The position numbers and the translations under genes were made by a program. DNA of 64,000 nt from Kiritimatiellia bacterium (GTDB taxonomy: Bacteria > Verrucomicrobiota > Kiritimatiellia > RFP12 > UBA1067), in assembly GCA_028686345.1 (NCBI GenBank), contig JAQUCE010000012.1, positions 886-64,885 of the forward strand. The letters are read 5' to 3'. Below, one piece after another: positions 10,326-45,944 of this stretch. The number at the start of each line of letters is the position of its first letter. Within the stretch, counting starts at the first letter, position 1. Below the pieces are notes generated by a model, which saw nothing but the letters and a program-made list of their open reading frames with translations, made no database searches and was not told where the DNA came from.

Positions 10326-10392
10326 GAGACAGGAGTCAGGAGTCAGGAGACAGGAGACAGGAGTCAGGAGTCAGGAGACAGGAGACAGGTGT
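10326..10392 (+). repeat. heptamer tandem array (G[AT]CAGGA)x9 with 28-bp higher-order period
   Basis: GAGACAGGAGTCAGGAGTCAGGAGACAGGAGACAGGAGTCAGGAGTCAGGAGACAGGAGACAGGTGTC lies immediately after the prepilin peptidase stop. Confidence 0.9.
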
Positions 10393-10437
10393 CCCGTCCT
10401 ATGATAGGTTGTCACTTTAAAAAGAAGCAACAAGGAA

Positions 10438-26330: not shown

Positions 26331-26530
26331 GACGATAACGGCGACGATGCTGGTGGACGAGCCCACGCATGCTCCTAATCGTCCACCAGCATCGTCGCAC
26401 AGCATCGTCAACCGATGTCGCTGGTCGAGCGACTACTACACATGCGCTACACTGCGGAGTGCAAGGGTTGTCGTTCGGTGTAGTAGCCGCTCTACCAGCG
26501 GCATTTTGCTGCAGGCATGTAAAAAGTGCG
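26331..26530 (+). repeat. Composite B, copy B2 (contains a perfect 20-bp-arm hairpin)
   Basis: GCGACGATGCTGGTGGACGA...TCGTCCACCAGCATCGTCGC (about 26344-26400), then GTCGCTGGTCGAGCGAC + CTACTAC, spacer, GGTGTAGTAGCCGCTCTACCAGCGGC. Confidence 0.85.
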
Positions 26531-26540
26531 CTACAAGATA

Positions 26541-26597
26541 CGACAGACAACTTTTTGGAAAGAACAATTAATTGTTTTTTCTTGTCGCCTAAGCGAC
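26541..26597 (-). repeat. L module, 32 nt upstream of the EEP gene ATG
   Basis: CGACAGACAACTTTTTGGAAAGAACAATTAATTGTTTTTTCTTGTCGCCTAAGCGAC, palindrome at 26563-26576. Inverted relative to 27451-27520. Confidence 0.85.
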
Positions 26598-26628
26598 GAA
26601 GCCAGAAAGAAAGCAGAAAGGAAAAAAC

Positions 26629-27438
26629 ATGATAATCACTAACCACAGCACACAGCTTATGGTAAATTTATTGTTCGCGCTCGGTGTGATCACCAGCGCA
26701 TACGGGACGGAAAACACTCCCGCAGAAGGCGCCTCGCTACGCCTGCTCTCCTACAACATCAGACATGGAAGGGGCATGGACGACGGAATTGACCTAAAAC
26801 GGATTGCCGCGGTGATCGCGAATCAAAAGCCGGATCTGGTCGCCTTGCAGGAGGTCGACAAAGTTTGCAAACGCAGCGGCAATCGCGATATTGCAGCCGA
26901 GCTAGCCAAGCTGCTCGGTATGGAGCATCGCTTTGGAAAGTTTATGGATTTTCAGGGCGGCGAATATGGGTTGGCAATCCTCTCACGCTTTCCCATCCAG
27001 GAGAGCATCCATCATCGGCTCCCGAAAGGGTCGGAGCCGCGCTGCGCGCTGGAGGTCACAGTTCACCCGCCCGGGATGAAAACACCGCTCGCATTTGTCA
27101 GTATCCACAACGACTGGATCACCGAGGAGATCCGGGTTACACAGGTCCAAACCCTGCTCGATGGCCTTGCGGAACGCAGGCACCCGATAATTCTGGCTGG
27201 CGATTTTAACGGCGAACCCAGCGATGCTTCCATGAAACTCCTGGAAAAGAGCGGGTGGAGTGTGCTTAAAAAGGATGATGCAGCGGCAACCCTGACCTTT
27301 CCATCAGATAAGCCTAATACAGAGATTGACTTTTTTGTGATTAAAGGGCTGCCCCCCTTCTCATATAAACATCAGGTGGTGGATGAGCGCATGGCCTCCG
27401 ACCACCGTCCAATTGCAGCTGTGATTCAGCTGCAATGA
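26629..27438 (+). CDS. endonuclease/exonuclease/phosphatase (EEP) family protein, secreted
   Basis: 269 aa with a signal peptide. Motifs LRLLSYNIRHGRG, LQEVD, GDFNGEP and SDHRP. Confidence 0.85.
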   Translation: MIITNHSTQLMVNLLFALGVITSAYGTENTPAEGASLRLLSYNIRHGRGMDDGIDLKRIAAVIANQKPDLVALQEVDKVCKRSGNRDIAAELAKLLGMEHRFGKFMDFQGGEYGLAILSRFPIQESIHHRLPKGSEPRCALEVTVHPPGMKTPLAFVSIHNDWITEEIRVTQVQTLLDGLAERRHPIILAGDFNGEPSDASMKLLEKSGWSVLKKDDAAATLTFPSDKPNTEIDFFVIKGLPPFSYKHQVVDERMASDHRPIAAVIQLQ

Positions 27439-27450
27439 CTATGTTAGTCA

Positions 27451-27739
27451 CTTAGACGACTGGAAAAACAATTAATTGTTCTTTGCAAAAAAATTGTCTA
27501 TCGGGCCTTATTGCGGCTTGTTTCGCAGTCATCCACCGCATAGCGGCGGATATACTTTGCAAACATCCACCGCATAGCGGCGGATATACTTTGCAAACAT
27601 CCACCGCATAGCGGCGGATATACTGTGTTGCTTTCAGTATGTCCGCCGCTATGCGGTGGATGCCCATTTTTTACCTCAACATTTTTTACCTCAAAAACAG
27701 CGCAGCAATATTTTCTTACCCCAAATATTCTTACCTTTT
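27451..27739 (+). repeat. Composite A, copy A1: L module + 34-bp tandem units + REPIN-like doublet + TTCTTACC module
   Basis: L module at 27451-27520. Units ATCCACCGCATAGCGGCGGATATACTTTGCAAAC at 27531-27564 and 27565-27598, with a third from 27599. An inverted copy at 27636-27661 forms a 26-bp-arm hairpin with 27599-27624. The tail ATTTTCTTACCCCAAATATTCTTACC runs into the dgkA stop. Confidence 0.9.
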
Positions 27740-28130
27740 AGATCTCGATCTCCAGCAACTTCAGGATATAGGGGCCAAGGGTGAGCAGGCCAATCGCAAT
27801 CGAGCCAATCGCCGTTGTAAGCACTGCCGCGGCTGCCACATCCTTGGCCTTCTCAATCAGAGGGTGATAATCCGGGGAGACCACATCGGAGAGAAACTCT
27901 ATCGACGTGTTAAAGGCCTCAGCGGTCCAGACCGCCACCATGGCCAGCACCAGCCAGCACCACTCAGATTGAGAGATCCCAAAGTAGAGCCCCGCCACAA
28001 TGACGACCAGCGTTGAGACAGCGTGAAACCAAGAGCTGTGCTGGGTCTCCAACAGCGTCCACAATCCCTTGAAAGCGTACTTGAAGCTCCTAATCCGATC
28101 CCCTAAGTGAAACTTCTTGCGTTTTTTCAT
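27738..28130 (-). CDS. dgkA: diacylglycerol kinase (prokaryotic DgkA family)
   Basis: 130 aa: RIRSFKYAFKGLWTLLETQHSSWFH, three TM helices, and EAFNTSIE with DVAAAAVL. Confidence 0.9.
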   Translation of the reverse strand: MKKRKKFHLGDRIRSFKYAFKGLWTLLETQHSSWFHAVSTLVVIVAGLYFGISQSEWCWLVLAMVAVWTAEAFNTSIEFLSDVVSPDYHPLIEKAKDVAAAAVLTTAIGSIAIGLLTLGPYILKLLEIEI

Positions 28131-28369
28131 ATACCTGCATTATGCCACAAAAGGCCGCAAAAAAACTACAAAAAAATGCTAGCTAAAAATTATGAGCTTT
28201 TAACTCTGATGCAGTTGGAGCGTTTTTTATAGCAGCGGGCTCTTAATCACAAACTTCTGAATGAGAGCGACGACCTTCCGCACACCACACAAACTCTTTT
28301 GGTTGCCTGCCTGTGCGTAGCACGCAGACAGGCGGCGGCCGGCTGCTTTAGTTGCTATTCTTTATAGAT

Positions 28370-29815: not shown

Positions 29816-29847
29816 CCGGCCAAACGCTGAAGCGTGAACAGCAAACG

Positions 29848-29921
29848 GCTGCTCCGTAAGGTTTGTTGTTCAGCCTTTAGGCTGCTCCGTAAGGTTTGTT
29901 GTTCAGCCTTTAGGCTGCTCC
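29848..29921 (+). repeat. 33-bp tandem repeat x2.2 (GCTGCTCCGTAAGGTTTGTTGTTCAGCCTTTAG)
   Basis: Perfect copies at 29848-29880 and 29881-29913, then a partial third. Related inverted sequence occurs at about 38355-38420. Each unit can pair with the upstream GTGAACAGCAAAC. Confidence 0.85.
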
Positions 29922-30151: not shown

Positions 30152-31003
30152 ATGATTAAATCACTGATGTTGGGCGTGGGTGTTCTGGGGCTTGCTTTTG
30201 CACTCCATGCAGAGCAGCGTATAGTGGAAATTTGGCCAGCTGGCAAGATCCCCCTGCTGAAAGAGACGCCGCCCGAGAAAATCAATGATTCCAAGGATGA
30301 TATCGTACGGCTGACCAATGTCAGCACGCCTACGCTGACAATTTACCCAGCCCCGGAGAGTGCGCAGCCCGCGCCTGCGGTTCTGGTCTGCCCTGGTGGC
30401 GGCTACAGCATTCTGGCTTGGAATCATGAGGGCACTGAGGTGGCCGAGTGGTTCAACAAACAGGGCTTTACCGCCTTTGTGTTGAAATACCGGACACCAG
30501 GTCAGCGTGATGCCGCATTCTGTGACGCTCAGCGGGCGCTGCGTTTCATCCGCGCCAACGCCGATGAGTTTAAGGTGAACCCTGCTAAACTCGGGATCAT
30601 GGGTTTCTCGGCTGGCGGACATCTAACGGTACGCGTCAGCAATAACTATGCAGCCTCACTGTACGAACCAGTGGACAGTGCTGACAAGCTCTCCTGCCGC
30701 CCTGACTTTTCGGTGCCGGTTTATCCCGCCTATTTGAATCAGAAGGGCACCTTTGAGATGGTGGATGAGTTTGCCATCAGCGGGCAGACGCCTCCGACCT
30801 TCATCATAGCCGCCGAGGACGACCACTCTTTTGTGGATTGCAGCATTGCCTACTACATTGCGCTGAAGCAAGCCAAGGTGCCAGCCGAAATGCACCTTTT
30901 CCCCAGCGGCGGCCATGGCTTCGGCATGCGCAAACGCGGTGGTTCGATTGACACCTGGAGCGACCTTCTGGCAACCTGGCTGCAGCAACACGTTTTGAAA
31001 TAA
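30152..31003 (+). CDS. secreted alpha/beta hydrolase (esterase/lipase, carbohydrate-esterase-like)
   Basis: The ATG at 30152 gives the signal peptide MIKSLMLGVGVLGLAFALHA. Oxyanion motif VCPGGGY, nucleophile elbow GFSAGGH and C-terminal GGHGF are present. Confidence 0.85.
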   Translation: MIKSLMLGVGVLGLAFALHAEQRIVEIWPAGKIPLLKETPPEKINDSKDDIVRLTNVSTPTLTIYPAPESAQPAPAVLVCPGGGYSILAWNHEGTEVAEWFNKQGFTAFVLKYRTPGQRDAAFCDAQRALRFIRANADEFKVNPAKLGIMGFSAGGHLTVRVSNNYAASLYEPVDSADKLSCRPDFSVPVYPAYLNQKGTFEMVDEFAISGQTPPTFIIAAEDDHSFVDCSIAYYIALKQAKVPAEMHLFPSGGHGFGMRKRGGSIDTWSDLLATWLQQHVLK

Positions 31004-31514
31004 GCTTTCTTTGTTTCTTATCTTTATCCTCAAACCACTTTTTCAGGGTTTCTTGAGTTATGGGTAGTGGCTGCCACCCGGAGAGCAGACGTTCGGCGCA
31101 CCAGCGACCATGTTCCACCTCTGCTAACAATCTCAAGGTTTTTTGCTCTTTAAGCTGGGATTGTAAGCGCGCTTTATCAACCCTGCTTTTTCCCGCATGC
31201 CCCAGCAAACAAAACTTTATTGTTAAGTGATCAGAGACCTGCCGATTAGAGTCGCGCTCCCACTCCTGCCGCGTAATCCAATTCATATCTCTGAAACATT
31301 TTCTGCTCTGGTGATCGAATTTTTCCATGCTTTGCCGGGCTTCCTCACACGACCATTTAAATTCGTACGCCAAAATTAAAAATACATAAAGAGGTATTAT
31401 AAGACCGATTGATTTCCATAGATTGTTGATTGCCCACCGGCCCCTCTGCTCTCCCAATTGGCTATATCCAAATGTGCCAAGCACAACAGTGGCAGCCGCC
31501 ACGAACAGAGGCAC
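30804..31514 (-). CDS. hypothetical membrane protein; 3' 200 nt overlap the convergent hydrolase gene
   Basis: GTG-started 236-aa ORF with two hydrophobic helices. It carries an EVEHGRWCAERLLSGW motif reminiscent of RyR-like domains (weak recollection). The tail beyond ~31003 is probably non-native read-through. Confidence 0.3.
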   Translation of the reverse strand: MPLFVAAATVVLGTFGYSQLGEQRGRWAINNLWKSIGLIIPLYVFLILAYEFKWSCEEARQSMEKFDHQSRKCFRDMNWITRQEWERDSNRQVSDHLTIKFCLLGHAGKSRVDKARLQSQLKEQKTLRLLAEVEHGRWCAERLLSGWQPLPITQETLKKWFEDKDKKQRKLISKRVAAARLPEGRSRCQSNHRVCACRSHGRRWGKGAFRLAPWLASAQCSRQCCNPQKSGRPRRL

Positions 31515-31769
31515 TTGATAAATTATCTCTCACAGAGGCACAGAGGCCACAGAGAGAGAAAGTATACACTCTGAGAATTCTGTGCCTCTGTGAGAGATAA
31601 GAAACGTGCCTATAACTCGGTTTTAGGGTTTAAGTTTATAGCCGCAAAGGGCGCATAAAACGGGCCCGATGCCGACGGGGACATCGGCGCGACGATCAAG
31701 ACAGCCCCGATAAACACGAAAAGTAACACGCACACTGCTAACAACTTAATGCTTGTCTTAAATATTTCG

Positions 31770-32081
31770 CTTAGGCGACTAGAAAAAAACAATTAATTGT
31801 TCTTTTCAAATAGTTGTCTGTCGGGGCTTGTTGCGGATATACTTCGCAATAATCCACCGCATAGCGGCGGATATACTGTGTTGCTTTCAGTATGTCCGCC
31901 GCTATGCGGTAGACACCCGTTTTTCACCTCTCAGATTTTTTGCCCGCGAAACGAAGCGTAGCCCAGCAGGGCATCATCGAGGATGAAGCAAGGAGCAAAG
32001 CGACTGGCAATCTCCGCGAGCTCTGCCGCTCTGCGAGGAAAAATTTTAAGGTAAGAAAATTTGGGGTAAGAAAATGTTGCC
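31770..32081 (+). repeat. Composite A, copy A2
   Basis: L module (palindrome 31788-31801), a partial 34-bp unit, a REPIN-like doublet (31852-31877 pairs with 31889-31914), extra inserted sequence, then an inverted TTCTTACC module at about 32047-32081. Confidence 0.85.
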
Positions 32082-32165
32082 GTTAATATTTGACATTACT
32101 CGGAATTATCAATTATACTCCTCCATTTATGTCGCCTTGTCTTTACTTCAAATTAACGCTGTTAT

Positions 32166-33374
32166 ATGCGTTCGATTGTCGAACAAATGCGTGATATGTC
32201 AAAGAGAGGAGGAAGTGGCAACATGGTTCCAGTGAGAAAGCACACCCAACTTGCGCCAGTGAATCGCTTTGACAAAAAGGAGATCGACCGTCAGGTCGCG
32301 CGCGTCGCCAAAACTCCGTTGCTGTGCAATCAGCTTGATATGATACCCGATGCAATCATGATTCTCAATGAAAAGCATCAGATAGTTTTTGCCAACCGTG
32401 CGGCTGCATCTCTGCTAAACGTTCTCAAACACAGCGATCTTTATGGGATGCGTCCCGGTGAAGCCTTGGGCTGTGTTCACGCGAATGAATCTGAACACGG
32501 CTGCGGAACCACAATGTTCTGCCGTACCTGCGGGGCAGTTAAATCAATCCTCACCGCTTTTCAGGGCACTCGCTCTGTTGAAGAGTGCCACGTCAAAGCC
32601 AACCATAGACACCTGTCTTATGATTTTCGTGTAACAACATCACCGTACTTCTTTGACGATGAACATTTTGTCATGCTTGTGCTGAACGACATCAGCAATG
32701 AAAAACGGCGGGAGGTGCTTGAGAGAACTTTTTTTCACGATGTCAATAACACGCTTCAAGTTTTATTGTCAACCGCCGAGATCATGCCGCCGCACGCCAC
32801 GACCCATGAAAACGAGCTGGCACAAGTAATCAACACCGGCATAAGGATGCTCGCCAATGAAGTCAAATCGCAACAAAGCTTATTGCTTGCGGAAGATGGC
32901 GGCCTCGCGCTGGAGTTACAGCAGCTTGGCTCAAAGAAAACACTGAGCGAGATTATTTCTCTCTACAGCCACTACGATTGCGCTCAGAAAAAGAAAATTG
33001 AGATTGATGACCAGACCGTTGATGCCGTGTTTATCAGCGATAAAATCCAGTTTTCGCGCGTAATTGGCAATATGCTCAAAAACGCGATGGAAGCGTCGTC
33101 GCACCCGAACATAGTGACTGTCGGATGCAAAAAACCCAGTGACGGGCAGATCCTTTTCTGGGTTCACAACGAGCAGCACATGGCTCAAAAAATCAAGGAT
33201 CAAGTTTTCAACCGCTCTTTTTCAACTAAAGGCACCGGGCGAGGTGTTGGCACATACAGTATTAAATTGCTTGGTGAAGTTTACCTCGGCGGCAAAGTCA
33301 GTTTCACCTCAACACCGGAGGCAGGAACAACCTTCTTCATTGAACTGCCGGTAGCCGGCCCACCCAGAGCATAA
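32166..33374 (+). CDS. sensor histidine kinase (cytoplasmic, PAS-like sensor with Cys cluster)
   Basis: 402 aa. H-box FFHDVNNTLQVL, N-box NMLKNAMEAS, G-box TKGTGRGVGTYSIKLL. The sensor region carries C-x10-C-x6-C-x2-C (GCVHANESEHGCGTTMFCRTCG). No response regulator is adjacent. Confidence 0.85.
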   Translation: MRSIVEQMRDMSKRGGSGNMVPVRKHTQLAPVNRFDKKEIDRQVARVAKTPLLCNQLDMIPDAIMILNEKHQIVFANRAAASLLNVLKHSDLYGMRPGEALGCVHANESEHGCGTTMFCRTCGAVKSILTAFQGTRSVEECHVKANHRHLSYDFRVTTSPYFFDDEHFVMLVLNDISNEKRREVLERTFFHDVNNTLQVLLSTAEIMPPHATTHENELAQVINTGIRMLANEVKSQQSLLLAEDGGLALELQQLGSKKTLSEIISLYSHYDCAQKKKIEIDDQTVDAVFISDKIQFSRVIGNMLKNAMEASSHPNIVTVGCKKPSDGQILFWVHNEQHMAQKIKDQVFNRSFSTKGTGRGVGTYSIKLLGEVYLGGKVSFTSTPEAGTTFFIELPVAGPPRA

Positions 33375-36238: not shown

Positions 36239-36240
36239 AG

Positions 36241-36320
36241 GTTAGGGGTTAGGGGCCAGGGGTTAGGGAGCTGGAGAGGTTAAGGGCTAGGGTTAGTGTT
36301 TAGGGATTAGGGGTTGGGGT
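36241..36320 (+). repeat. TTAGGG-like degenerate G-run array (G-quadruplex-capable)
   Basis: GTTAGGGGTTAGGGGCCAGGGGTTAGGGAG...GGTTAAGGGCTAGGGTTAGTGTTTAGGGATTAGGGGTTGGGG lies between the uvrA start and the dsbD-like stop. Confidence 0.85.
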
Positions 36321-36363
36321 CGAGAGAATCGAGATAATCGAAGGGGTCGAGGTAATCAAAGGG

Positions 36364-36395
36364 GTCGATTCAGTCGATTCAGTCGATTCAGTCGA
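36364..36395 (+). repeat. 9-bp tandem repeat (GTCGATTCA)x3.5
   Basis: GTCGATTCAGTCGATTCAGTCGATTCAGTCGA, preceded by degenerate GGGGTCGAG/ATCGA units. Confidence 0.9.
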
Positions 36396-38628: not shown

Positions 38629-39070
38629 GTAGCTCCGATTTCCAATCGGATATGGCGGTTTTAAAAACGGAGCTACTGAGGTCGGACACGTCTCCGGTGA
38701 CGATAGCGGCGACGATGCTGGTTGACGATTTTCAAGGGCGGGGTTTTCAATCGTCCGCCAACATCGTCGCACAGCATCGTCAACCGATGCCGCTCTACGA
38801 GCGGCATACTGCTGCAGGCATATGAAAGGCGCGCCCCGGGGTGTAGTAGCCGCTCTGCGAGCGGCATACTGCAGCAGGTTCGTGAAAGGCGCACCCCGGG
38901 GTGTAGGGTTGCTTCCAGCATGTCCGCCGTAGCCTTGGCGAAGGAGGATGAAGCAATTAGCGGACACCGGGCGATTGTTCGCCAAAGGCGCGCCATGGGA
39001 TTTTATTATCTTTGTTTGGCTCATCCGTCTTCGTCCCGCAAGCGGAACTACGCCGGACAAGTTCCGCCAA
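38629..39070 (+). repeat. Composite B, copy B3 (longest; duplicated GTAGTAG-hairpin unit)
   Basis: Order of modules: GTAGCTCCG...CGGAGCTAC; the GACGATG/CATCGTC block; GCCGCTCTACGAGCGGCATACTGCTGCAGG; GAAAGGCGCGCCCCGGGGTGTAGTAGCCGCTCTGCGAGCGGC; GTTGCTTC...GAAGCAAT; then a tail of about 120 bp. Co-linear with the reverse complement of 51473-51807. Confidence 0.85.
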
Positions 39071-39104
39071 CCTGCACATTTCAACTTTAATGAAATCTGC
39101 AAGT

Positions 39105-39174
39105 CGCAATAAAGCCCGATAGGCAACTTTTTGCAAAGAACAATTACTTGTTTTTTCTAGTTGCCTAAGCGACG
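39105..39174 (-). repeat. L module, 10 nt from the fprA-family stop
   Basis: CGCAATAAAGCCCGATAGGCAACTTTTTGCAAAGAACAATTACTTGTTTTTTCTAGTTGCCTAAGCGACG. The palindrome has one mismatch (39139-39152). Confidence 0.85.
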
Positions 39175-39183
39175 AGACCACAC

Positions 39184-40867: not shown

Positions 40868-40929
40868 GATCTGGTCAGCCGCATAGCGACTGACCTCCTC
40901 CTGCAAGCAAGATACTTGCGCTACTTCAT
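40868..40929. repeat. CGCATAGCG hairpin + H2 fragment overlapping the permease stop codon
   Basis: TCTGGTCAGCCGCATAGCGACTGACCTCCTCCTGCAAGCAAGATACTTGCGCTACTTCAT. The permease's last codons (ATG AAG TAG on the reverse strand) lie in the H2 consensus CACTACTTCAT. Confidence 0.8.
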
Positions 40930-43026
40930 GCTGGGCAACACAATGCCACGTAGAATCACCCGCTGGCAGGCAATAAAAACCAGAGCGGTAGGGAGAGAGA
41001 TCAACACAAAGCCAGCCATGACCGCCCACGGTTGTCCGCTGAATTGCTGACTCATCTGATACATCCAGACCGCCAGCGTCCAATAACTCTGTTTCTGGCA
41101 GACCAGCAGCGCCCACTCCCAACTGTTGTAGGTCACAACAAAGGCATGCAATGCGTTCACGGCCAGAATAGGGGTTGTCATAGGCAGCGTAATACGCAAG
41201 AAAATCTGCCACTCTTTCGCCCCGTCCACGGTGGCCGCTTCATAGAGTTCGCGGGGCAGCCCGTCGAAAAATCCTTTTAAAATGAAGATCGACATTCCAT
41301 TGGCCACAGTTGGCAGCACCAGGGCCGCAAAGGTATTGAGCAGCCCCAGATCACGAATCAACAGAAATCCGGGAATAGCGGTCACAGCCGCGGGAAAGGC
41401 CATGGTTGAGAGCAGAAAAAGCAGAATTTTTTCTGTTGACCTCAAACCAAATCTTGAAAGTGCGTACGCTGCCAGGGGGTTGACAGTCAAGGTGGCCAGG
41501 ATGGACAGCGCGAGCAGCAACAGGGTATTGCCAAAGGCCCGGCCCCGCAAGAAGAGATACTCTCCCACCAGCCGATAGTTCGAAAGCACGCCAGCGAAAA
41601 ACTTCTGCCACCCGCGTTTTTTGAAGGTTACAGCAAGCGCCTCACGCACAGGAAAGCGAGCCTCTTCAATCCGCTGCAACTCCCACCCGTAGCTCGCATT
41701 AACACCTGCCACACTCCCGTATTTTTCTAACAAAAAGCGCTGCCACTCGCTCTCCGCACTTAAAACCGTCAGTGATCCCAACGGCACCCGCGCCGCGAAA
41801 TTACGCCAGAGCGAGCTGTTTTCATACGAGTGGAGCGTGATCTCGGCAAACGAGCTGATCGCCACACCTGTCAGCTTGGTATAGGCGGCCGTACTTTTGC
41901 AGAGATTTGCGACATAGCCCTGAAACTCAGCTTCCAGCGCGGGGGTGACTTTGATGCGCAGCAAGCGGCGCGGATAAGAGTTATGGATAAAATCGGCCCA
42001 GACTTGCCGCAGCATCGGTGAAGAATCCTCCGGTAATGGAAACGGCAGGTGCTGAAAGGAGCGGCAGAGGTGGCCTGCAACAGCGCTGTAATCAGCCGGG
42101 GAGAATTGATTCTCCTCCGCCAACCCCAGTTTCACCTGCGTGTCCGGCAGCGCTAAAAATTTCAGCCAAAGGTTGCGCGAGGCATACGGGATAGAGGCGC
42201 TCATGGGCGAGACAGATGCTGCATAGTGTTTGAAAGCTCGCCAATTTTCCTCGGTGGCCCCCCCCTTGGCAGCCGCGTAGCTGCGCCAGCCCTGACACCC
42301 GGTTTCAAATTCAAGCTCGCGGTAGGCGCGTTTGAACTCCTGGTAAAGCGCGAACTTGGGGTTGTCGGGAGGATAATCCCAACTTGCATGGTGCAAAGGG
42401 GCGCGCTCCTCCGCCACCATACGTATGCCGAAAAAACTGCGGTAGCGGATCAGCCACTCCTGATTCATCATCTGCAACGCGGCATCCTGTCGGGCGGAGC
42501 TGCGCATGGCAGCATAACCCTGAGGATCTTGCGCTCGAACACGCCTCTCAAAATGCGCACGTACAAACGCGGCAATATGGCGGGGGTCATAGTTGCAGCT
42601 GCTGTTAAGCGGGTCGTAATCGAGATTAAAGTTAGCATAGTCGGCGGCCGCCCGCTGCCAGCGTTGGAAGGTGGCGGGGTCATCAACTGCGGCCAATTGC
42701 CCGGCAGCGAAGGCGCGGCATCCGGCCTCATCGCGGGAGACGACAATCCAGCTGCCCCACTGCTCGGGGGCATCGGGATAGAACTCCAGCGGAAAGCGCT
42801 CGAAGCAGCTCGAGATATGACGCATGAAACGGTCGGGACGATCCCAAAACGCGCGCACCACCGGTGAGTAGCGATGATAGTCGTAAGCTGAGGTGAACGA
42901 GGCGGAGAGCATTACCAGAAAAGGCCACACCATGGTTAAACCTCCAATGGTCAGCACCGCATAGATCAAGGCCAGGAACAAACGCGCTTTAGTGCTTTTG
43001 CGTTCGGCTGGCAGTATAACGGGCAT
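40921..43026 (-). CDS. carbohydrate-type ABC transporter permease (MalG/BPD family) with a ~430-aa insertion after TM1
   Basis: 701 aa. TM1 is LFLALIYAVLTIGGLTMVWPFLVML, followed by a long non-hydrophobic segment. The canonical permease core follows, with the EAA loop LPRELYEAATVDGAKEWQIFLRITLPM. No ATPase, binding protein or partner permease lies in the window. Confidence 0.8.
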   Translation of the reverse strand: MPVILPAERKSTKARLFLALIYAVLTIGGLTMVWPFLVMLSASFTSAYDYHRYSPVVRAFWDRPDRFMRHISSCFERFPLEFYPDAPEQWGSWIVVSRDEAGCRAFAAGQLAAVDDPATFQRWQRAAADYANFNLDYDPLNSSCNYDPRHIAAFVRAHFERRVRAQDPQGYAAMRSSARQDAALQMMNQEWLIRYRSFFGIRMVAEERAPLHHASWDYPPDNPKFALYQEFKRAYRELEFETGCQGWRSYAAAKGGATEENWRAFKHYAASVSPMSASIPYASRNLWLKFLALPDTQVKLGLAEENQFSPADYSAVAGHLCRSFQHLPFPLPEDSSPMLRQVWADFIHNSYPRRLLRIKVTPALEAEFQGYVANLCKSTAAYTKLTGVAISSFAEITLHSYENSSLWRNFAARVPLGSLTVLSAESEWQRFLLEKYGSVAGVNASYGWELQRIEEARFPVREALAVTFKKRGWQKFFAGVLSNYRLVGEYLFLRGRAFGNTLLLLALSILATLTVNPLAAYALSRFGLRSTEKILLFLLSTMAFPAAVTAIPGFLLIRDLGLLNTFAALVLPTVANGMSIFILKGFFDGLPRELYEAATVDGAKEWQIFLRITLPMTTPILAVNALHAFVVTYNSWEWALLVCQKQSYWTLAVWMYQMSQQFSGQPWAVMAGFVLISLPTALVFIACQRVILRGIVLPSMK

Positions 43027-43057
43027 AATCTCTCGCTTTCATTTGCTTTCTTAGTCG

Positions 43058-43246
43058 CTTAGGCGACTAGAAAAAACAACTAATTGTTCTTTCCAAAAAG
43101 TTGTTTATCGGCTCTTATTGCGGCGTGCTTCACAATCATCCACCGCATAGCGGAGGATATACTTCACAATCATCCACCGCATAGCGGAGGATATACTTCG
43201 CAATCATCCACCGCATAGCGGAGGATATACTTCGCAATCATCCACT
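43058..43246 (+). repeat. Composite A, copy A3: L module + 34-bp tandem array x3.2
   Basis: L module (palindrome variant 43075-43088). Units ATCCACCGCATAGCGGAGGATATACTTC[AG]CAATC at 43138-43171, 43172-43205 and 43206-43239, plus a partial fourth. It begins 32 nt upstream of the permease ATG. Confidence 0.9.
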
Positions 43247-43294
43247 AACATCGTCGCCGTTATCGTTAACCGACCTCCGGACTCCACCGCCAGG

Positions 43295-44575
43295 CTACGG
43301 GGATAGTAATGTTTTTAACTCCTTTGCAAGTGTCAGCAGGGAGTTTGCTTTTAATGGAAGGGAGGAGAAAAGAGCGGTTTCACAATCAGGGCCGGCTAAT
43401 CCATGGGTGCCTTTAATACGCGAGGTGTCCTGGGAGGTGCGAAAGGGATTTGAGCCGAAAAAGAGTTCGCATGGGTCATACCCTGGTTTGTTATGAATAT
43501 CAACATGGCCGGCGTATTCAGGGGCTTCGGATGGATTGTGCCACCAGGGGTAGGCAAACCAGTAGCCGGGTTTGGCGGTCATTAAGAGATCTCCGCTACG
43601 GGGGTGATCAACCTGGAGTTCGCGCTGCCCGGCAGCGTCGGTCACGCCGCCAACGCCTTCGAGCGCCTGCAGCACCTCAGCTGTCCGCTGGATTGCACTT
43701 TGGTCAAAGCAGGTGACCATGGCCACCTGATGATCAACGACTGCAAAGGCGCGGCTCTGGTGCAGATCGGGGTAAAGCATTTTTCGGACGCGGCGTGTTT
43801 TAAAGAGCCCCGCGTTTCGGAGCGCCTGATTGGGAAAGACGGCCCCCCCGGTAACATCGCTGATAGCGTAATCGCCGTAGGCGACAGCGTGGTAGCCATT
43901 CTCCTGTGCGGTTTTAAACAGGAGGGTTAACTCGCGTCGCAACTCTTGAGCGGCTCTTTTACTCTTTGAGTGGCGCGTACCGTAACGTTGCAGGGCGTAA
44001 TCCAGGCAGGGCAGATAGGTAATCAAAAGCTCCGGCGCATCGGCGGAGCTCAACATGCCGGCAACCGCTTTGGCAATCCAGCGTGAACTGGCAGTGGAGG
44101 CCAGCGGCCCCCAGTAGCGGTGCAGCTTAAAGGGCGAGCCGGTCCATTGCTGCACGCCTGCGTAGAGCGACTCCGGTGTGCTGCTGCAATCCATGATCAT
44201 GCCGCCATTGTGTTTATGGATCGGAGCAGGCGAAATGATCTGATCAACGCTCTCCCCCAGGCTTTGCTGAAAGAAGGTCATAGCAACTGTACCGCCCTGC
44301 CCGCGCAGGCTCTCCCAGAGACGTTCGCCTTTGACAAGTGCCGAAGATTGCTCCCAGAAGAGTGGTCGACGCAAGGTGCGCTCCATAAAGCCGTTGGCAA
44401 TCATCCCATGCTGAGCAGGCGCACTCGCGGTGCGCAGGGTGGCCTGCGCGGTGCAGGTGAGCCCGGGAAAGAGAGGTTGAAGCGGTTTTACTTCAAAACC
44501 CTCGATCTCTGTCAAGCCGTTATCACTGGCAAAGTTCAGGCCGAGTCCGGCCACCTGTATTATAAGTATTTTCAT
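43295..44575 (-). CDS. alkaline phosphatase superfamily protein (nucleotide pyrophosphatase/phosphodiesterase-like)
   Basis: 426 aa: MKILIIQVAGLGLNF...FPGLTCTAQATLRT (metal/nucleophile Thr region) and a later DY...H motif typical of the AP superfamily. Confidence 0.75.
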   Translation of the reverse strand: MKILIIQVAGLGLNFASDNGLTEIEGFEVKPLQPLFPGLTCTAQATLRTASAPAQHGMIANGFMERTLRRPLFWEQSSALVKGERLWESLRGQGGTVAMTFFQQSLGESVDQIISPAPIHKHNGGMIMDCSSTPESLYAGVQQWTGSPFKLHRYWGPLASTASSRWIAKAVAGMLSSADAPELLITYLPCLDYALQRYGTRHSKSKRAAQELRRELTLLFKTAQENGYHAVAYGDYAISDVTGGAVFPNQALRNAGLFKTRRVRKMLYPDLHQSRAFAVVDHQVAMVTCFDQSAIQRTAEVLQALEGVGGVTDAAGQRELQVDHPRSGDLLMTAKPGYWFAYPWWHNPSEAPEYAGHVDIHNKPGYDPCELFFGSNPFRTSQDTSRIKGTHGLAGPDCETALFSSLPLKANSLLTLAKELKTLLSP

Positions 44576-45878: not shown

Positions 45879-45944
45879 ATCCACCGTGTAACGGCGGATT
45901 TACTTTATTTGCAACATAAGTATGTCCTCCGCTATGCGGTGGAC
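45879..45944. repeat. REPIN-like doublet, diverged variant of the 34-bp unit
   Basis: ATCCACCGTGTAACGGCGGATTTACTT...AAGTATGTCCTCCGCTATGCGGTGGAC. Outer flanks (CTGCAAATCGGTGCA / TGCACCGATTCGCAG) extend the imperfect palindrome. Confidence 0.8.

What the first reader, a model, noticed from the sequence alone, without database searches (positions are those of the whole stretch)
27451..27739. Composite A: L module followed by 34-bp tandem hairpin units ending in a REPIN-like doublet (three loci)
The same architecture occurs at 27451-27739, 31770-32081 and 43058-43246. It starts with an L module. Next come one to three head-to-tail 34-bp units (ATCCACCGCATAGCGG[CA]GGATATACTTYRCAAWC), each an 8-bp-stem hairpin. 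In two copies an inverted unit follows, giving a 26-bp-arm hairpin with one mismatch (27599-27624/27636-27661 and 31852-31877/31889-31914). A TTCTTACC module then follows, also in two copies. Unit number differs between loci (2.8, 1.5 and 3.2), so the arrays expand and contract. Units within one array match each other better than units between arrays (GGCGG at 27.5 kb, GGAGG at 43.1 kb). That points to local amplification or conversion.
Basis: seen in the sequence. Interest (0 to 1): 0.62.

Follow-up and report, generated by a model that had tools for sequence, protein, structure and literature searches.

The report
Tandem REP hairpin arrays, Kiritimatiellia genome
The three flagged sites are among about 210 places in this uncultured Kiritimatiellia genome where a 34-base selfish hairpin repeat (REP type) is stacked head-to-tail and usually closed by one inverted copy. 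A sister species keeps a matching REP-type transposase gene (there carrying one in-frame stop) between clusters of the same repeat, so this is an undescribed family and an unusual arrangement of a well-known kind of element.

Summary
The hairpin core TCCACCGCATAGCGG[C/A]GGA occurs 611 times in 212 clusters of this 5.3-Mb Kiritimatiellia MAG. The usual form is n direct 34-bp units (n = 1 to 15), then one inverted unit that makes a 27-bp-arm hairpin.

An 87-bp "L" module sits on the left of 96 clusters. L is a general end-module of the intergenic mosaics: 187 copies, half of them next to other repeats. The TTCTTACC words are not part of the composite.

Units within an array are far more alike than units between arrays, and 21 arrays carry private variants. 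Two orthologous arrays differ between species in unit number and period. Local amplification is therefore supported.

The family occurs in only three species of one genus. In one of them (G004) a RAYT-like HUH/Tyr transposase gene, with one in-frame stop, is flanked on both sides by this REP. Its intact orthologue in G002 is flanked by capped direct arrays of a sister REP. The own assembly lacks the gene, but contig C41 starts inside the matching flank array.

Verdict: a REP/REPIN-RAYT family inside BIME-like mosaics, with atypical head-to-tail organisation. This scan has already noted such mosaics in this and other Kiritimatiellae genomes. Function beyond selfish spread is unproven.

The parts
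27444..27530 (+). L module, locus 1. It holds the P1 hairpin TTAGTCACTTAGACGACT, the palindrome GAAAAACAATTAATTGTTCTTTG and the tail ...TTGCGGCTTGTTTCGCAGTC. The tail ends in the same TTCGCAryC motif that precedes every unit.
   Evidence: nhmmer: 187 copies genome-wide. Its fold is not significant (z -1.3/-1.1).
27531..27625 (+). Three direct A units of 34 bp (27531-27564, 27565-27598, 27599-27625). The linker TTTGCAAAC is private to this array.
27635..27662 (-). Inverted cap unit (b type, GTCC...GGAC variant). With the last A unit it forms a 28-nt-arm hairpin with a 9-nt loop at 27626-27634.
27663..27706 (+). R1 module: two CATTTTTTACCTCAA words, then AAACAGCGCAGC. The b hairpin plus CCCATTTTTT was the first-listed terminator-like site in the 17.6 kb scanned.
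   Evidence: R1 follows 44 of 80 capped arrays
27707..27737 (+). TTCTTACC word doublet (reverse complement GGTAAGAAtAT...GGGTAAGAAAAT). It belongs to a separate word-module family and is not part of the REP composite.
31770..31851 (+). L module, locus 2 (31770-31836), followed by a unit tail ATATACTTCGCAATA (31837-31851).
31852..31914 (+). A-b doublet (REPIN-like): 26-nt arms, 92% complementary.
32046..32075 (-). TTCTTACC word doublet in the opposite orientation, 130 bp from the doublet and just upstream of a strong promoter-like site (32090-32119).
43051..43137 (+). L module, locus 3. Its P1 end lies 25 bp from the ATG of the divergently read gene 40921..43026. The orthologous upstream region in G004 lacks L.
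43138..43245 (+). Three full direct units plus a truncated fourth, all of the GGAGG variant. There is no inverted cap; the array is joined to another module (CATCGTCGCCG...).
45879..45944 (.). Doublet of the second subfamily (c/D types: CCGTGTAACGG paired with GGAGGAC) inside a longer element with inverted ends.
26529..26603 (-). Another L module, followed by a different repeat family. Its P1 end lies 25 bp upstream of the ATG of gene 26629..27438.
   Evidence: (C195 27414-27488)
39099..39179 (-). Another L module, followed by a non-REP module.
   Evidence: C195 39984-40064

Best explanation
The 34-bp unit is a complete REP-type element: a 5' tail TTCGCAAYC, an imperfect hairpin ATCCACCGC-ATA-GCGGCGGAT with a fixed A.C mismatch, and a tail ATAC. 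It is not a hairpin plus a spacer.

- **Mobile core (inferred).** The core is the inverted doublet A-loop-b, which is REPIN-like. I infer that it was spread in trans by a RAYT-class HUH/tyrosine transposase that recognises the folded single strand.
- **Array growth (inferred from comparisons).** At a site, the A arm is multiplied head-to-tail by local duplication. This could be slipped-strand mispairing or unequal exchange between abutting units, or local reprocessing by the transposase. Arrays therefore grow, shrink and homogenise in place.
- **Mosaic context (shown).** The elements sit in BIME-like mosaics of many short modules (L, R1, R2, word doublets, other REP families). These mosaics make up about 40% of intergenic DNA.
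- **Side effects on expression (inferred).** In one orientation the cap hairpin plus the T-run of R1 has the anatomy of an intrinsic terminator.

Shown here: abundance, hairpin constraint, array dynamics, and RAYT association in sister species. Inferred: transposase-driven spread in this genome, the slippage mechanism, and the terminator effect.
For: - **Abundance and grammar.** There are 611 units in 212 clusters. Direct runs followed by one inverted unit are the dominant form. The period is 34 bp in 204 of 264 same-strand spacings.
- **Master-and-mutants population.** 27 identical copies of the 61-nt doublet exist, plus a cloud of one-step variants.
- **Hairpin constraint.** Pair 1-21 is A-T in 424 units and G-C in 134. 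Pair 9-13 is C-G in 574 and T-A in 35. Position 5-17 is a Watson-Crick pair in only 5 of 611 units, and it reads G.T on the other strand.
- **The unit includes its 5' tail.** The consensus TTCGCAATCA precedes the hairpin even where L is absent.
- **Local amplification.** See, and the orthologous arrays.
- **Narrow, uneven distribution.** Counts at up to one mismatch are 549, 171 and 18 copies in three species of one genus, and none in 28 other relatives.
- **Presence or absence at orthologous sites**.
- **Transposase link in G004.** A roughly 200-aa ORF at G004:C13 is flanked by 8 units upstream and 5 downstream of exactly this REP.
- **Transposase link in G002.** The intact 60%-identical orthologue is flanked on both sides by capped direct arrays of a sister REP with the same CGCTATGCGG core.
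- **Transposase features.** The proteins keep the HUH motif and the Tyr. Their best solved relative is E. coli TnpA-REP, 4ER8, at E = 7e-13, against about 1e-4 for IS200/IS605 TnpA.
- **Missing gene in G000.** Contig C41 starts inside the array that best matches both G004 transposase flanks.
- **Shared grammar.** L plus a direct array plus a cap also holds for the GTAGTA-tagged REP family. Other copies of that family flank a canonical RAYT (102 bits, cut-off 80).
Against: - No orthologue of the REP-flanked transposase is in the own assembly. The best match is 36% identical, as a domain fused inside another gene.
- No gene in G000 reaches the curated RAYT cut-off.
- The G004 copy has an in-frame TAA.
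- The G002 protein gives no Pfam hit and scores 67.7 bits against a cut-off of 80 on NF047646.
- There is no GTAG or CGTC tag at the stem foot; GTAT stands there instead.
- Y1-like genes are numerous in the whole genus, including species without this REP.
- Array lengths come from short-read MAG assemblies. Several arrays touch contig ends or runs of N, so copy numbers are lower bounds.
- Within-array identity could be inflated by assembler collapse.
Confidence: 0.75

Rival explanations
1. The composites are kept mainly because they work as RNA or transcription elements. Proposed roles are polar intrinsic terminators, 3' mRNA stabilisers at gene ends, or L as a portable promoter or leader.
For: - The b hairpin plus CCCATTTTTT was the first-listed terminator-like site in the region, and R1 follows 55% of capped arrays.
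- The stem is kept by compensatory changes.
- The bottom strand folds without a mismatch, using G.U.
- Arrays between same-direction genes are more often antisense to the terminator orientation: 56 versus 32, p = 0.014. This fits selection against termination inside operons.
- L's P1 end lies 9-50 bp from about 27 gene starts.
Against: - Clusters are not depleted from divergent (promoter) gaps: 26 divergent, 27 convergent and 88 tandem. This matches the genome-wide proportions.
- L abuts gene starts and gene ends equally (70 versus 68).
- The L fold is not significant.
- No Rfam family matches.
- Content at orthologous sites turns over between species.
- Terminator-like sites in the region are no more frequent than in shuffles (21 versus 21.2).
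- The gene calls used were crude ORF calls.
Confidence: 0.2
2. The whole L-(unit)n-cap-R block is a modular MITE of the pneumococcal BOX type (boxA-boxBn-boxC). It would be moved as one piece by a DDE transposase of an insertion sequence.
For: - It is modular, with a variable number of a middle unit between conserved end modules, like BOX elements (PMC3049150).
- L marks a sharp boundary with unique DNA.
Against: - L and R1 have no inverted-repeat relation to each other.
- L pairs with many other modules (97 of 187 copies) and with another REP family.
- Right-hand modules vary: R1 44, R2 18, other 18.
- A-b doublets occur without L.
- The cores flank a RAYT-like gene, not a DDE transposase.
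- No target-site duplication was seen, although no clean empty site was available.
Confidence: 0.08
3. The arrays are binding platforms for a DNA-binding protein (gyrase, IHF-like or another nucleoid protein, as for E. coli BIMEs). They would be maintained for chromosome organisation.
For: - They are regularly spaced identical sites (34 bp).
- L contains a perfect 14-24-bp palindrome typical of dimeric binders.
- The arrays sit in a BIME-like mosaic context.
Against: - There is no direct evidence.
- Copy number and position are not conserved between sister species.
- The conserved mismatch argues for recognition of a folded single strand rather than duplex DNA.
Confidence: 0.07
4. The three loci are simple segmental duplicates, or the arrays are artefacts of short-read assembly.
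For: This is a MAG of 218 contigs. Several arrays lie at contig ends or next to runs of N.
Against: - There are 212 clusters with unique flanks.
- The same grammar appears in independently assembled genomes of other species, and at orthologous sites.
- Arrays of up to 4 units (136 bp) are likely within one short read (my assumption; the read length is not known to me).
Confidence: 0.02

Closest known systems
REP / REPIN elements with their RAYT (TnpA-REP) tyrosine transposases (Bertels and Rainey 2011, PMC3116915; PMC3337134; Messing et al. 2012, PMC3479197)
   Same: - A short imperfect hairpin in hundreds of extragenic copies.
- Inverted doublets that fold into one long hairpin.
- A master sequence with a mutant cloud.
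- Restriction to a narrow clade.
- A RAYT-like HUH/Tyr gene flanked on both sides by the repeat in sister species.
- E. coli TnpA-REP (4ER8) is the closest solved structure.
   Different: - The dominant organisation is head-to-tail arrays of one arm closed by a single inverted unit, not isolated doublets.
- The tag next to the stem is GTAT, not GTAG.
- The associated protein is below the curated RAYT score and misses the Pfam model.
- The cognate gene is not in the own assembly.
GTAG- and CGTC-tagged REP super-families (Di Nocera et al. 2013, PMC3733652), which include PVC examples such as Opitutus terrae
   Same: - The stem-loop size and the occurrence of singletons, dimers and clusters.
- Some clusters reiterate single units in tandem.
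- Several REP families coexist in one genome. A true GTAGTA-tagged family with its own RAYT coexists here.
   Different: [quoted passage not shown] Here direct spacings (264) far outnumber inverted ones.
- The tag is neither GTAG nor CGTC.
- The tags face inward in the cap dimer (a 'TT' arrangement).
BIMEs of Escherichia coli (mosaics of REP/PU with extra motifs S, L, l, r and others; BIME-2 with variable repeat number). The comparison is from my own knowledge.
   Same: - Mosaic combination of REP hairpins with other conserved short motifs.
- A variable number of repeats at a locus.
- An AT-rich palindromic partner module.
   Different: - BIME units alternate in orientation (Y/Z). Here the units are direct, with one cap.
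- The scale is far larger: about 7% of the genome in repeats with at least 5 copies.
- Protein binding (IHF, gyrase) was not tested.
Pneumococcal BOX elements, boxA-(boxB)n-boxC (Croucher et al. 2011, PMC3049150)
   Same: - End modules around a tandem array of a short unit whose number varies between strains.
- Longer arrays vary more.
- The unit folds on its own, so its number can change without disturbing the rest.
   Different: - BOX elements have terminal inverted repeats and target-site duplications, and are attributed to an IS transposase.
- Here the end modules are unrelated to each other, recombine freely with other partners, and the core unit is tied to a RAYT-like gene.

Membership tests
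REP / REPIN-RAYT | Short (20-40 nt) imperfect palindrome, high copy number, mainly extragenic | tested here: met
   The 21-nt hairpin sits within a 34-nt unit. There are 611 copies in 212 clusters. 44 clusters fell inside crude ORF calls, probably spurious ORFs across repeats.
REP / REPIN-RAYT | Two REPs in inverted orientation forming a long hairpin (REPIN), as a replicating population with a master sequence | tested here: met
   The A-b doublet has 27-28-nt arms, -32.9 kcal/mol, z -10.6. There are 81 doublets, and 27 are identical to the master.
REP / REPIN-RAYT | A RAYT gene flanked by the same REP, in the genome that carries the REPs | tested here: inconclusive
   Own genome: none of 7-12 Y1-like loci is flanked on both sides. 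Contig C41 begins inside the array that best matches the G004 flanks. The assembly is 90% complete.
REP / REPIN-RAYT | A RAYT gene flanked by the REP in related genomes | tested here: met
   G004:C13 has 8 units upstream and 5 downstream of a RAYT-like ORF that carries one in-frame TAA. G002:C185 has the intact orthologue between capped arrays of a sister REP. The orthologue was not found in the REP-free species G001 and G005.
REP / REPIN-RAYT | The transposase has the HUH motif and catalytic Tyr, and is closer to TnpA-REP than to IS200/IS605 TnpA | tested here: met
   H110, H112, Y172 and NPV are invariant. 4ER8 scores E = 7.4e-13 against 1e-4 or worse for IS200/IS605 TnpA structures. It is below the NF047646 cut-off (64-68 versus 80 bits).
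GTAG/CGTC-tagged REP super-families | A GTAG or CGTC tetranucleotide at one end of the stem | tested here: not met
   The bottom strand reads (C/A)AGTAT or AGTAA directly before the stem in all four unit types. GTAG occurs only in the loop of a minor variant, CCGCGTAGCGG.
BIME | A mosaic of REPs with other conserved extra-REP motifs | tested here: met
   L, R1, R2, word doublets and other REP families occur in variable combinations. 40% of intergenic bases are repeated at least 5 times.
BIME | Successive REPs alternate in orientation | tested here: not met
   Direct runs dominate. Only one cluster is fully alternating (C41).
BIME | Binding of IHF, gyrase or Pol I | not testable with these tools
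   No binding data are available.
BOX-type modular MITE | Terminal inverted repeats on the end modules and a target-site duplication | tested here: not met
   L and R1/R2 share no inverted repeat. A target-site duplication could not be assessed for lack of clean empty sites.
Intrinsic terminator | A GC-rich hairpin directly followed by a T-run, placed at 3' ends of genes in the sense orientation | tested here: inconclusive
   The anatomy is present at the cap plus R1 in 44 of 80 capped arrays. The sense orientation is the rarer one between tandem genes (32 versus 56). No RNA data are available.
CRISPR array | Repeats separated by unique spacers | tested here: not met
   Units abut with no unique spacer. 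The linkers are themselves part of the repeat.

The most novel reading that the evidence does not exclude
The head-to-tail arrays closed by one inverted unit may be direct products of the RAYT reaction rather than of replication slippage. Each 34-nt unit would carry both the hairpin that the enzyme recognises and, at its end, the site after which a new unit is pasted, so copies stack next to an existing one. The inverted cap would mark the founding REPIN. This would explain why three different REP families of this genus show the same grammar, and why both flanks of the transposase gene in G002 are themselves capped direct arrays. If true, the arrays are a natural record of RAYT activity, which has been hard to observe.
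Probability: 0.15. Interest if true: 0.6.

Novelty: new variant of a known kind. Interest (0 to 1): 0.4.

Why it matters
REP/REPIN-RAYT systems are mostly described from Proteobacteria. How REP clusters arise is still explained only by models.

This genus offers several useful features:
- Several coexisting REP families with the same array grammar.
- A transposase gene sitting between such arrays.
- Sister species with 0, 18, 171 and 549 copies.
- Orthologous arrays that changed unit number and period since the species split.

Together these make a workable comparative system for asking how REP arrays grow. They also show how a bacterium tolerates about 7% of its genome as short intergenic repeats. 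In practice these repeats break assemblies and synteny in Kiritimatiellia MAGs. They also create spurious ORFs and stop codons that annotators should expect.

Tried and rejected
- **Rfam.** The search at gathering threshold and the permissive search found only sub-threshold look-alikes of microRNA hairpins.
- **Y1 loci in the own genome.** I looked for a RAYT among the seven loci found with PF01797.
  - C218 and C93 are a 964-bp IS200-like element with its own GACGCTTCGCGTC hairpins.
  - C205 is flanked by AGGGACAGGCACTAA motifs.
  - C52 is a broken member of a Y1 family with many paralogues, and its intact G004 orthologue has no REP nearby.
  - C114 has a doublet on one side only, 445 bp away.
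  - C17 has no REP flanks.
  - All were rejected as the cognate gene.
- **Canonical RAYT of G004 (C162).** It is flanked by a different, GTAGTA-tagged REP.
- **Empty-site comparison at the three window loci.** This failed because the flanking genes lie on different contigs in both G004 and G002.
- **L as an outward promoter.** I rejected this as a general rule: L's P1 end faces gene starts and gene ends equally. It remains possible at single loci.
- **TTCTTACC as part of the composite.** Rejected.
- **Single-sequence searches with the G002 protein.** Searches against PDB and Pfam found nothing. A four-sequence profile was needed.

Full report
**What is there**

Tandem Repeats Finder reports period-34 arrays at 27530-27624 (2.8 copies, 100% match) and 43128-43245 (3.5 copies, 98%). 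The 27-nt core matches nine times in the window and never in shuffles.

The inverted cap gives 28-nt arms at 27598-27625/27635-27662 (96% complementary, 9-nt loop). At 31853-31878/31888-31913 it gives 26-nt arms (92%). Locus 3 has no cap.

As single-stranded DNA, one unit folds into a 4+4-bp stem around one mismatch with a 3-nt loop (-5.8 kcal/mol, z -2.45). The doublet folds at -32.9 kcal/mol (z -10.6). On the opposite strand the mismatch becomes a G.T pair, so that strand folds without interruption.

**Scale**

The window is part of contig C195 of a 5.30-Mb, 218-contig, 53% G+C assembly. Exact matches to the core in public genomes come only from MAGs titled Kiritimatiellia or Kiritimatiellae.

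In the own genome the core (up to 3 mismatches) occurs 611 times in 212 clusters. The dominant architectures are n direct units followed by one inverted unit. Same-strand spacings are 34 bp in 204 cases, 39 bp in 30 cases, and a few of 29-41 bp. The inverted partner lies 42 bp away in 75 cases.

Four unit types exist. Types A (ATCC...GGAT) and b (GTCC...GGAC, the cap) form the main family. Types D and c form a second family inside a longer element with inverted ends.

Internal arrays hold 1 to 15 direct units. Many arrays that looked uncapped actually carry a decayed cap. Some arrays touch contig ends or runs of N, so lengths are lower bounds.

**The unit is a whole element**

The consensus TTCGCAATCA precedes the hairpin even where no L module is present. 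The 34 nt are therefore 5' tail + hairpin + 3' tail, and arrays are units abutting with no spacer.

**Constraint on the hairpin**

| Pair | Main state | Alternative state | Note |
|---|---|---|---|
| 1-21 | A-T, 424 units | G-C, 134 units | compensatory |
| 9-13 | C-G, 574 units | T-A, 35 units | compensatory |
| 5-17 | A.C, 534 units | A.A, 65 units | Watson-Crick pair in only 5 of 611 |

They reflect a few subfamily events, not hundreds of independent ones. Even so, they show that the stem and its asymmetric mismatch are both kept. REP hairpins recognised as folded single strands show the same pattern (PMC3733652, PMC3479197).

**Array dynamics**

- Complete 34-bp units differ by 0.79 positions within arrays and 2.77 between arrays. 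56% of within-array pairs are identical, against 6% of between-array pairs. No permutation out of 2000 reached the observed value.
- 21 of 71 multi-unit arrays hold a variant repeated within the array and found nowhere else. This includes the TTTGCAAAC linker of locus 1.
- Two arrays could be compared at orthologous sites with G004.
  - At C205, G000 has a cap plus four 34-bp units, while G004 has three 38-bp units and no cap.
  - At C208, G000 has five units, three of them sharing TTCTCAATC, while G004 has six units, mostly with TTCGCAATC.
- Other orthologous gaps hold quite different modules in the two species.

These results support in-place expansion, contraction and homogenisation. The caveat is that short-read assemblers can collapse or homogenise arrays.

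**Context: mosaics**

An nhmmer model of the L module finds 187 copies. 90 lie next to this REP and 97 lie next to other repeat modules. In G004, L also precedes an array of a different REP family.

L is a terminal module. Beyond its P1 hairpin the DNA is unique. That end abuts gene starts (70) and gene ends (68) about equally. 27 crude ORFs end on L's own TAG.

The right-hand neighbour of 80 capped arrays is:

| Right-hand module | Arrays |
|---|---|
| R1 (CCCATTTTTCACCTC words) | 44 |
| R2 (CGGAAATTACA...) | 18 |
| Other | 18 |

The TTCTTACC words belong to a family of GGTA(A)GAAAAT doublets related to R1. They are near REP clusters in only 2 of 55 cases.

A self-comparison of intergenic DNA shows that 40% of it (7% of the genome) recurs at five or more other places.

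**Distribution**

With up to one mismatch the core occurs 549 times in G000, 171 times in G004 and 18 times in G002. It does not occur in three other genomes of the same genus or in 25 genomes of other genera of the family and order. The control pattern gave 0 everywhere.

**Transposase**

In the own genome seven to twelve Y1-like loci exist. None reaches the curated RAYT score and none is flanked on both sides by this REP.

In G004, a roughly 200-aa ORF at C13 has eight units of exactly this REP upstream and five downstream. It contains one in-frame TAA.

Its intact orthologue in G002 is 60% identical. It lies between arrays of a sister REP, GTCAGTCGCTATGCGGCTGAC. That REP has the same CGCTATGCGG core and loop, with the mismatch shifted by one pair. 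Upstream there are five direct units at 43-44 bp plus one inverted cap. Downstream there are two direct units plus one cap.

The orthologue was not found in G001 and G005. It is only 31% identical in G003 and 36% in G000, where it is a domain fused inside a DUF1156 gene.

The proteins keep the HUH motif, the Tyr and NPV. A four-sequence profile hits E. coli TnpA-REP (4ER8) at E = 7.4e-13, well ahead of IS200/IS605 transposases. The single G002 sequence finds nothing in PDB or Pfam.

G000 contig C41 begins at base 1 inside an alternating array that is the best own-genome match to both G004 flanks. The gene may therefore sit in an assembly gap. That is an inference.

A separate, canonical RAYT in G004 (102 bits, cut-off 80) is flanked by a GTAGTA-tagged REP. 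That family has 244 copies in G000 and 524 in G004. In G004 it also forms five direct 35-bp units plus an inverted cap, preceded by L. The grammar is therefore shared by at least three REP families of the genus.

**Function**

In the 17.6 kb scanned, the first-listed terminator-like site was the cap hairpin plus CCCATTTTTT. However, such sites are no more frequent overall than in shuffles.

Between same-direction genes the composite is more often antisense to that terminator orientation (56 versus 32, p = 0.014). Clusters are not depleted from divergent gaps. This fits selfish elements whose terminating orientation is selected against inside operons. It rests on crude ORF calls and on no RNA data.

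**Comparison with the literature and the scan**

Di Nocera et al. [quoted passage not shown] This family has GTAT and is mostly head-tail.

BOX elements (PMC3049150) share the end-module / variable-array / end-module layout. They differ in having terminal inverted repeats and an IS-linked origin.

A search of the paper library for Kiritimatiell* together with 'repetitive' and 'palindromic' surfaced no paper describing such repeats.

Earlier notes of this scan had already described REP/BIME-like mosaics in this genome and in other Kiritimatiellae. I treat those notes as leads only.

Noticed in passing
whole genome (G000): About 40% of intergenic DNA (375 kb, 7% of the genome) recurs at 5 or more other places, and 3.5% of the genome recurs at 50 or more. 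Many module families combine freely.
   Followed up: partly
window 26700-28200, 30800-33200, 42300-44300 versus G004 and G002: At all three loci the two flanking genes lie on different contigs in both sister genomes. Adjacent blocks of G004 map to many different G000 contigs. Synteny seems to break at mosaic gaps, or the MAGs are fragmented or chimeric there.
   Followed up: partly
genome-wide L modules, e.g. window 27444 and 43051: 27 crude ORFs end on the first TAG of L (TTAGTCGC...) at an identical offset. Many genes run right up to the L boundary, so L may supply stop codons or have replaced gene ends.
   Followed up: partly
G000:C218:126404-127367 and C93:2257-3220 (L002, L003): A 964-bp IS200-like element with a 241-aa Y1 transposase and its own subterminal GACGCTTCGCGTC hairpins. 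There are two full copies plus fragments on C210 and C202.
   Followed up: partly
G000:C5:10674-12281 (L004 1441-3048, minus strand): A RAYT-like domain (70.6 bits on NF047646) is fused in frame inside a DUF1156 anti-phage-associated gene. The rest of that gene continues as the next ORF.
   Followed up: no
G000:C205 (L005 940-1360 and 2740-2850): A 338-aa Y1-like gene is flanked on both sides by runs of the motif AGGGACAGGCACTAA. A 260-bp element just upstream has 15 or more copies at 95-99% identity elsewhere in the genome.
   Followed up: no
window 31516-31608: A long hairpin, scoring sub-threshold on several microRNA-precursor models, lies next to a CACAGAGGC word array (31531-31554). It is probably another mosaic module.
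   Followed up: no
window 32090-32119: The best promoter-like site of the region (TTGACA-18-TATACT, 11 of 12) lies directly downstream of the GGTAAGAAAAT word doublet and upstream of gene 32166..33374.
   Followed up: no
window 38789-38906: A 60-bp tandem repeat (2 copies, 87%) whose unit holds the hairpin GCCGCTCTACGAGCGGC and ends in GTGTAGTA. It appears to be a copy of the GTAGTA-tagged REP family that flanks a canonical RAYT in G004.
   Followed up: partly
window 29847-29921; 10326-10393; 36240-36395: Other perfect or near-perfect tandem repeats: a 33-bp unit x2.3; GAGACAG/GAGTCAG heptamers x9; GGTTAGG heptamers x11 followed by 9- and 18-bp repeats.
   Followed up: no
G000:C38:21381-21510, C124:2480, C91:7158: Runs of N (scaffold gaps) start inside REP arrays or L modules, so the repeats limit assembly and the array sizes are minimum values.
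   Followed up: no
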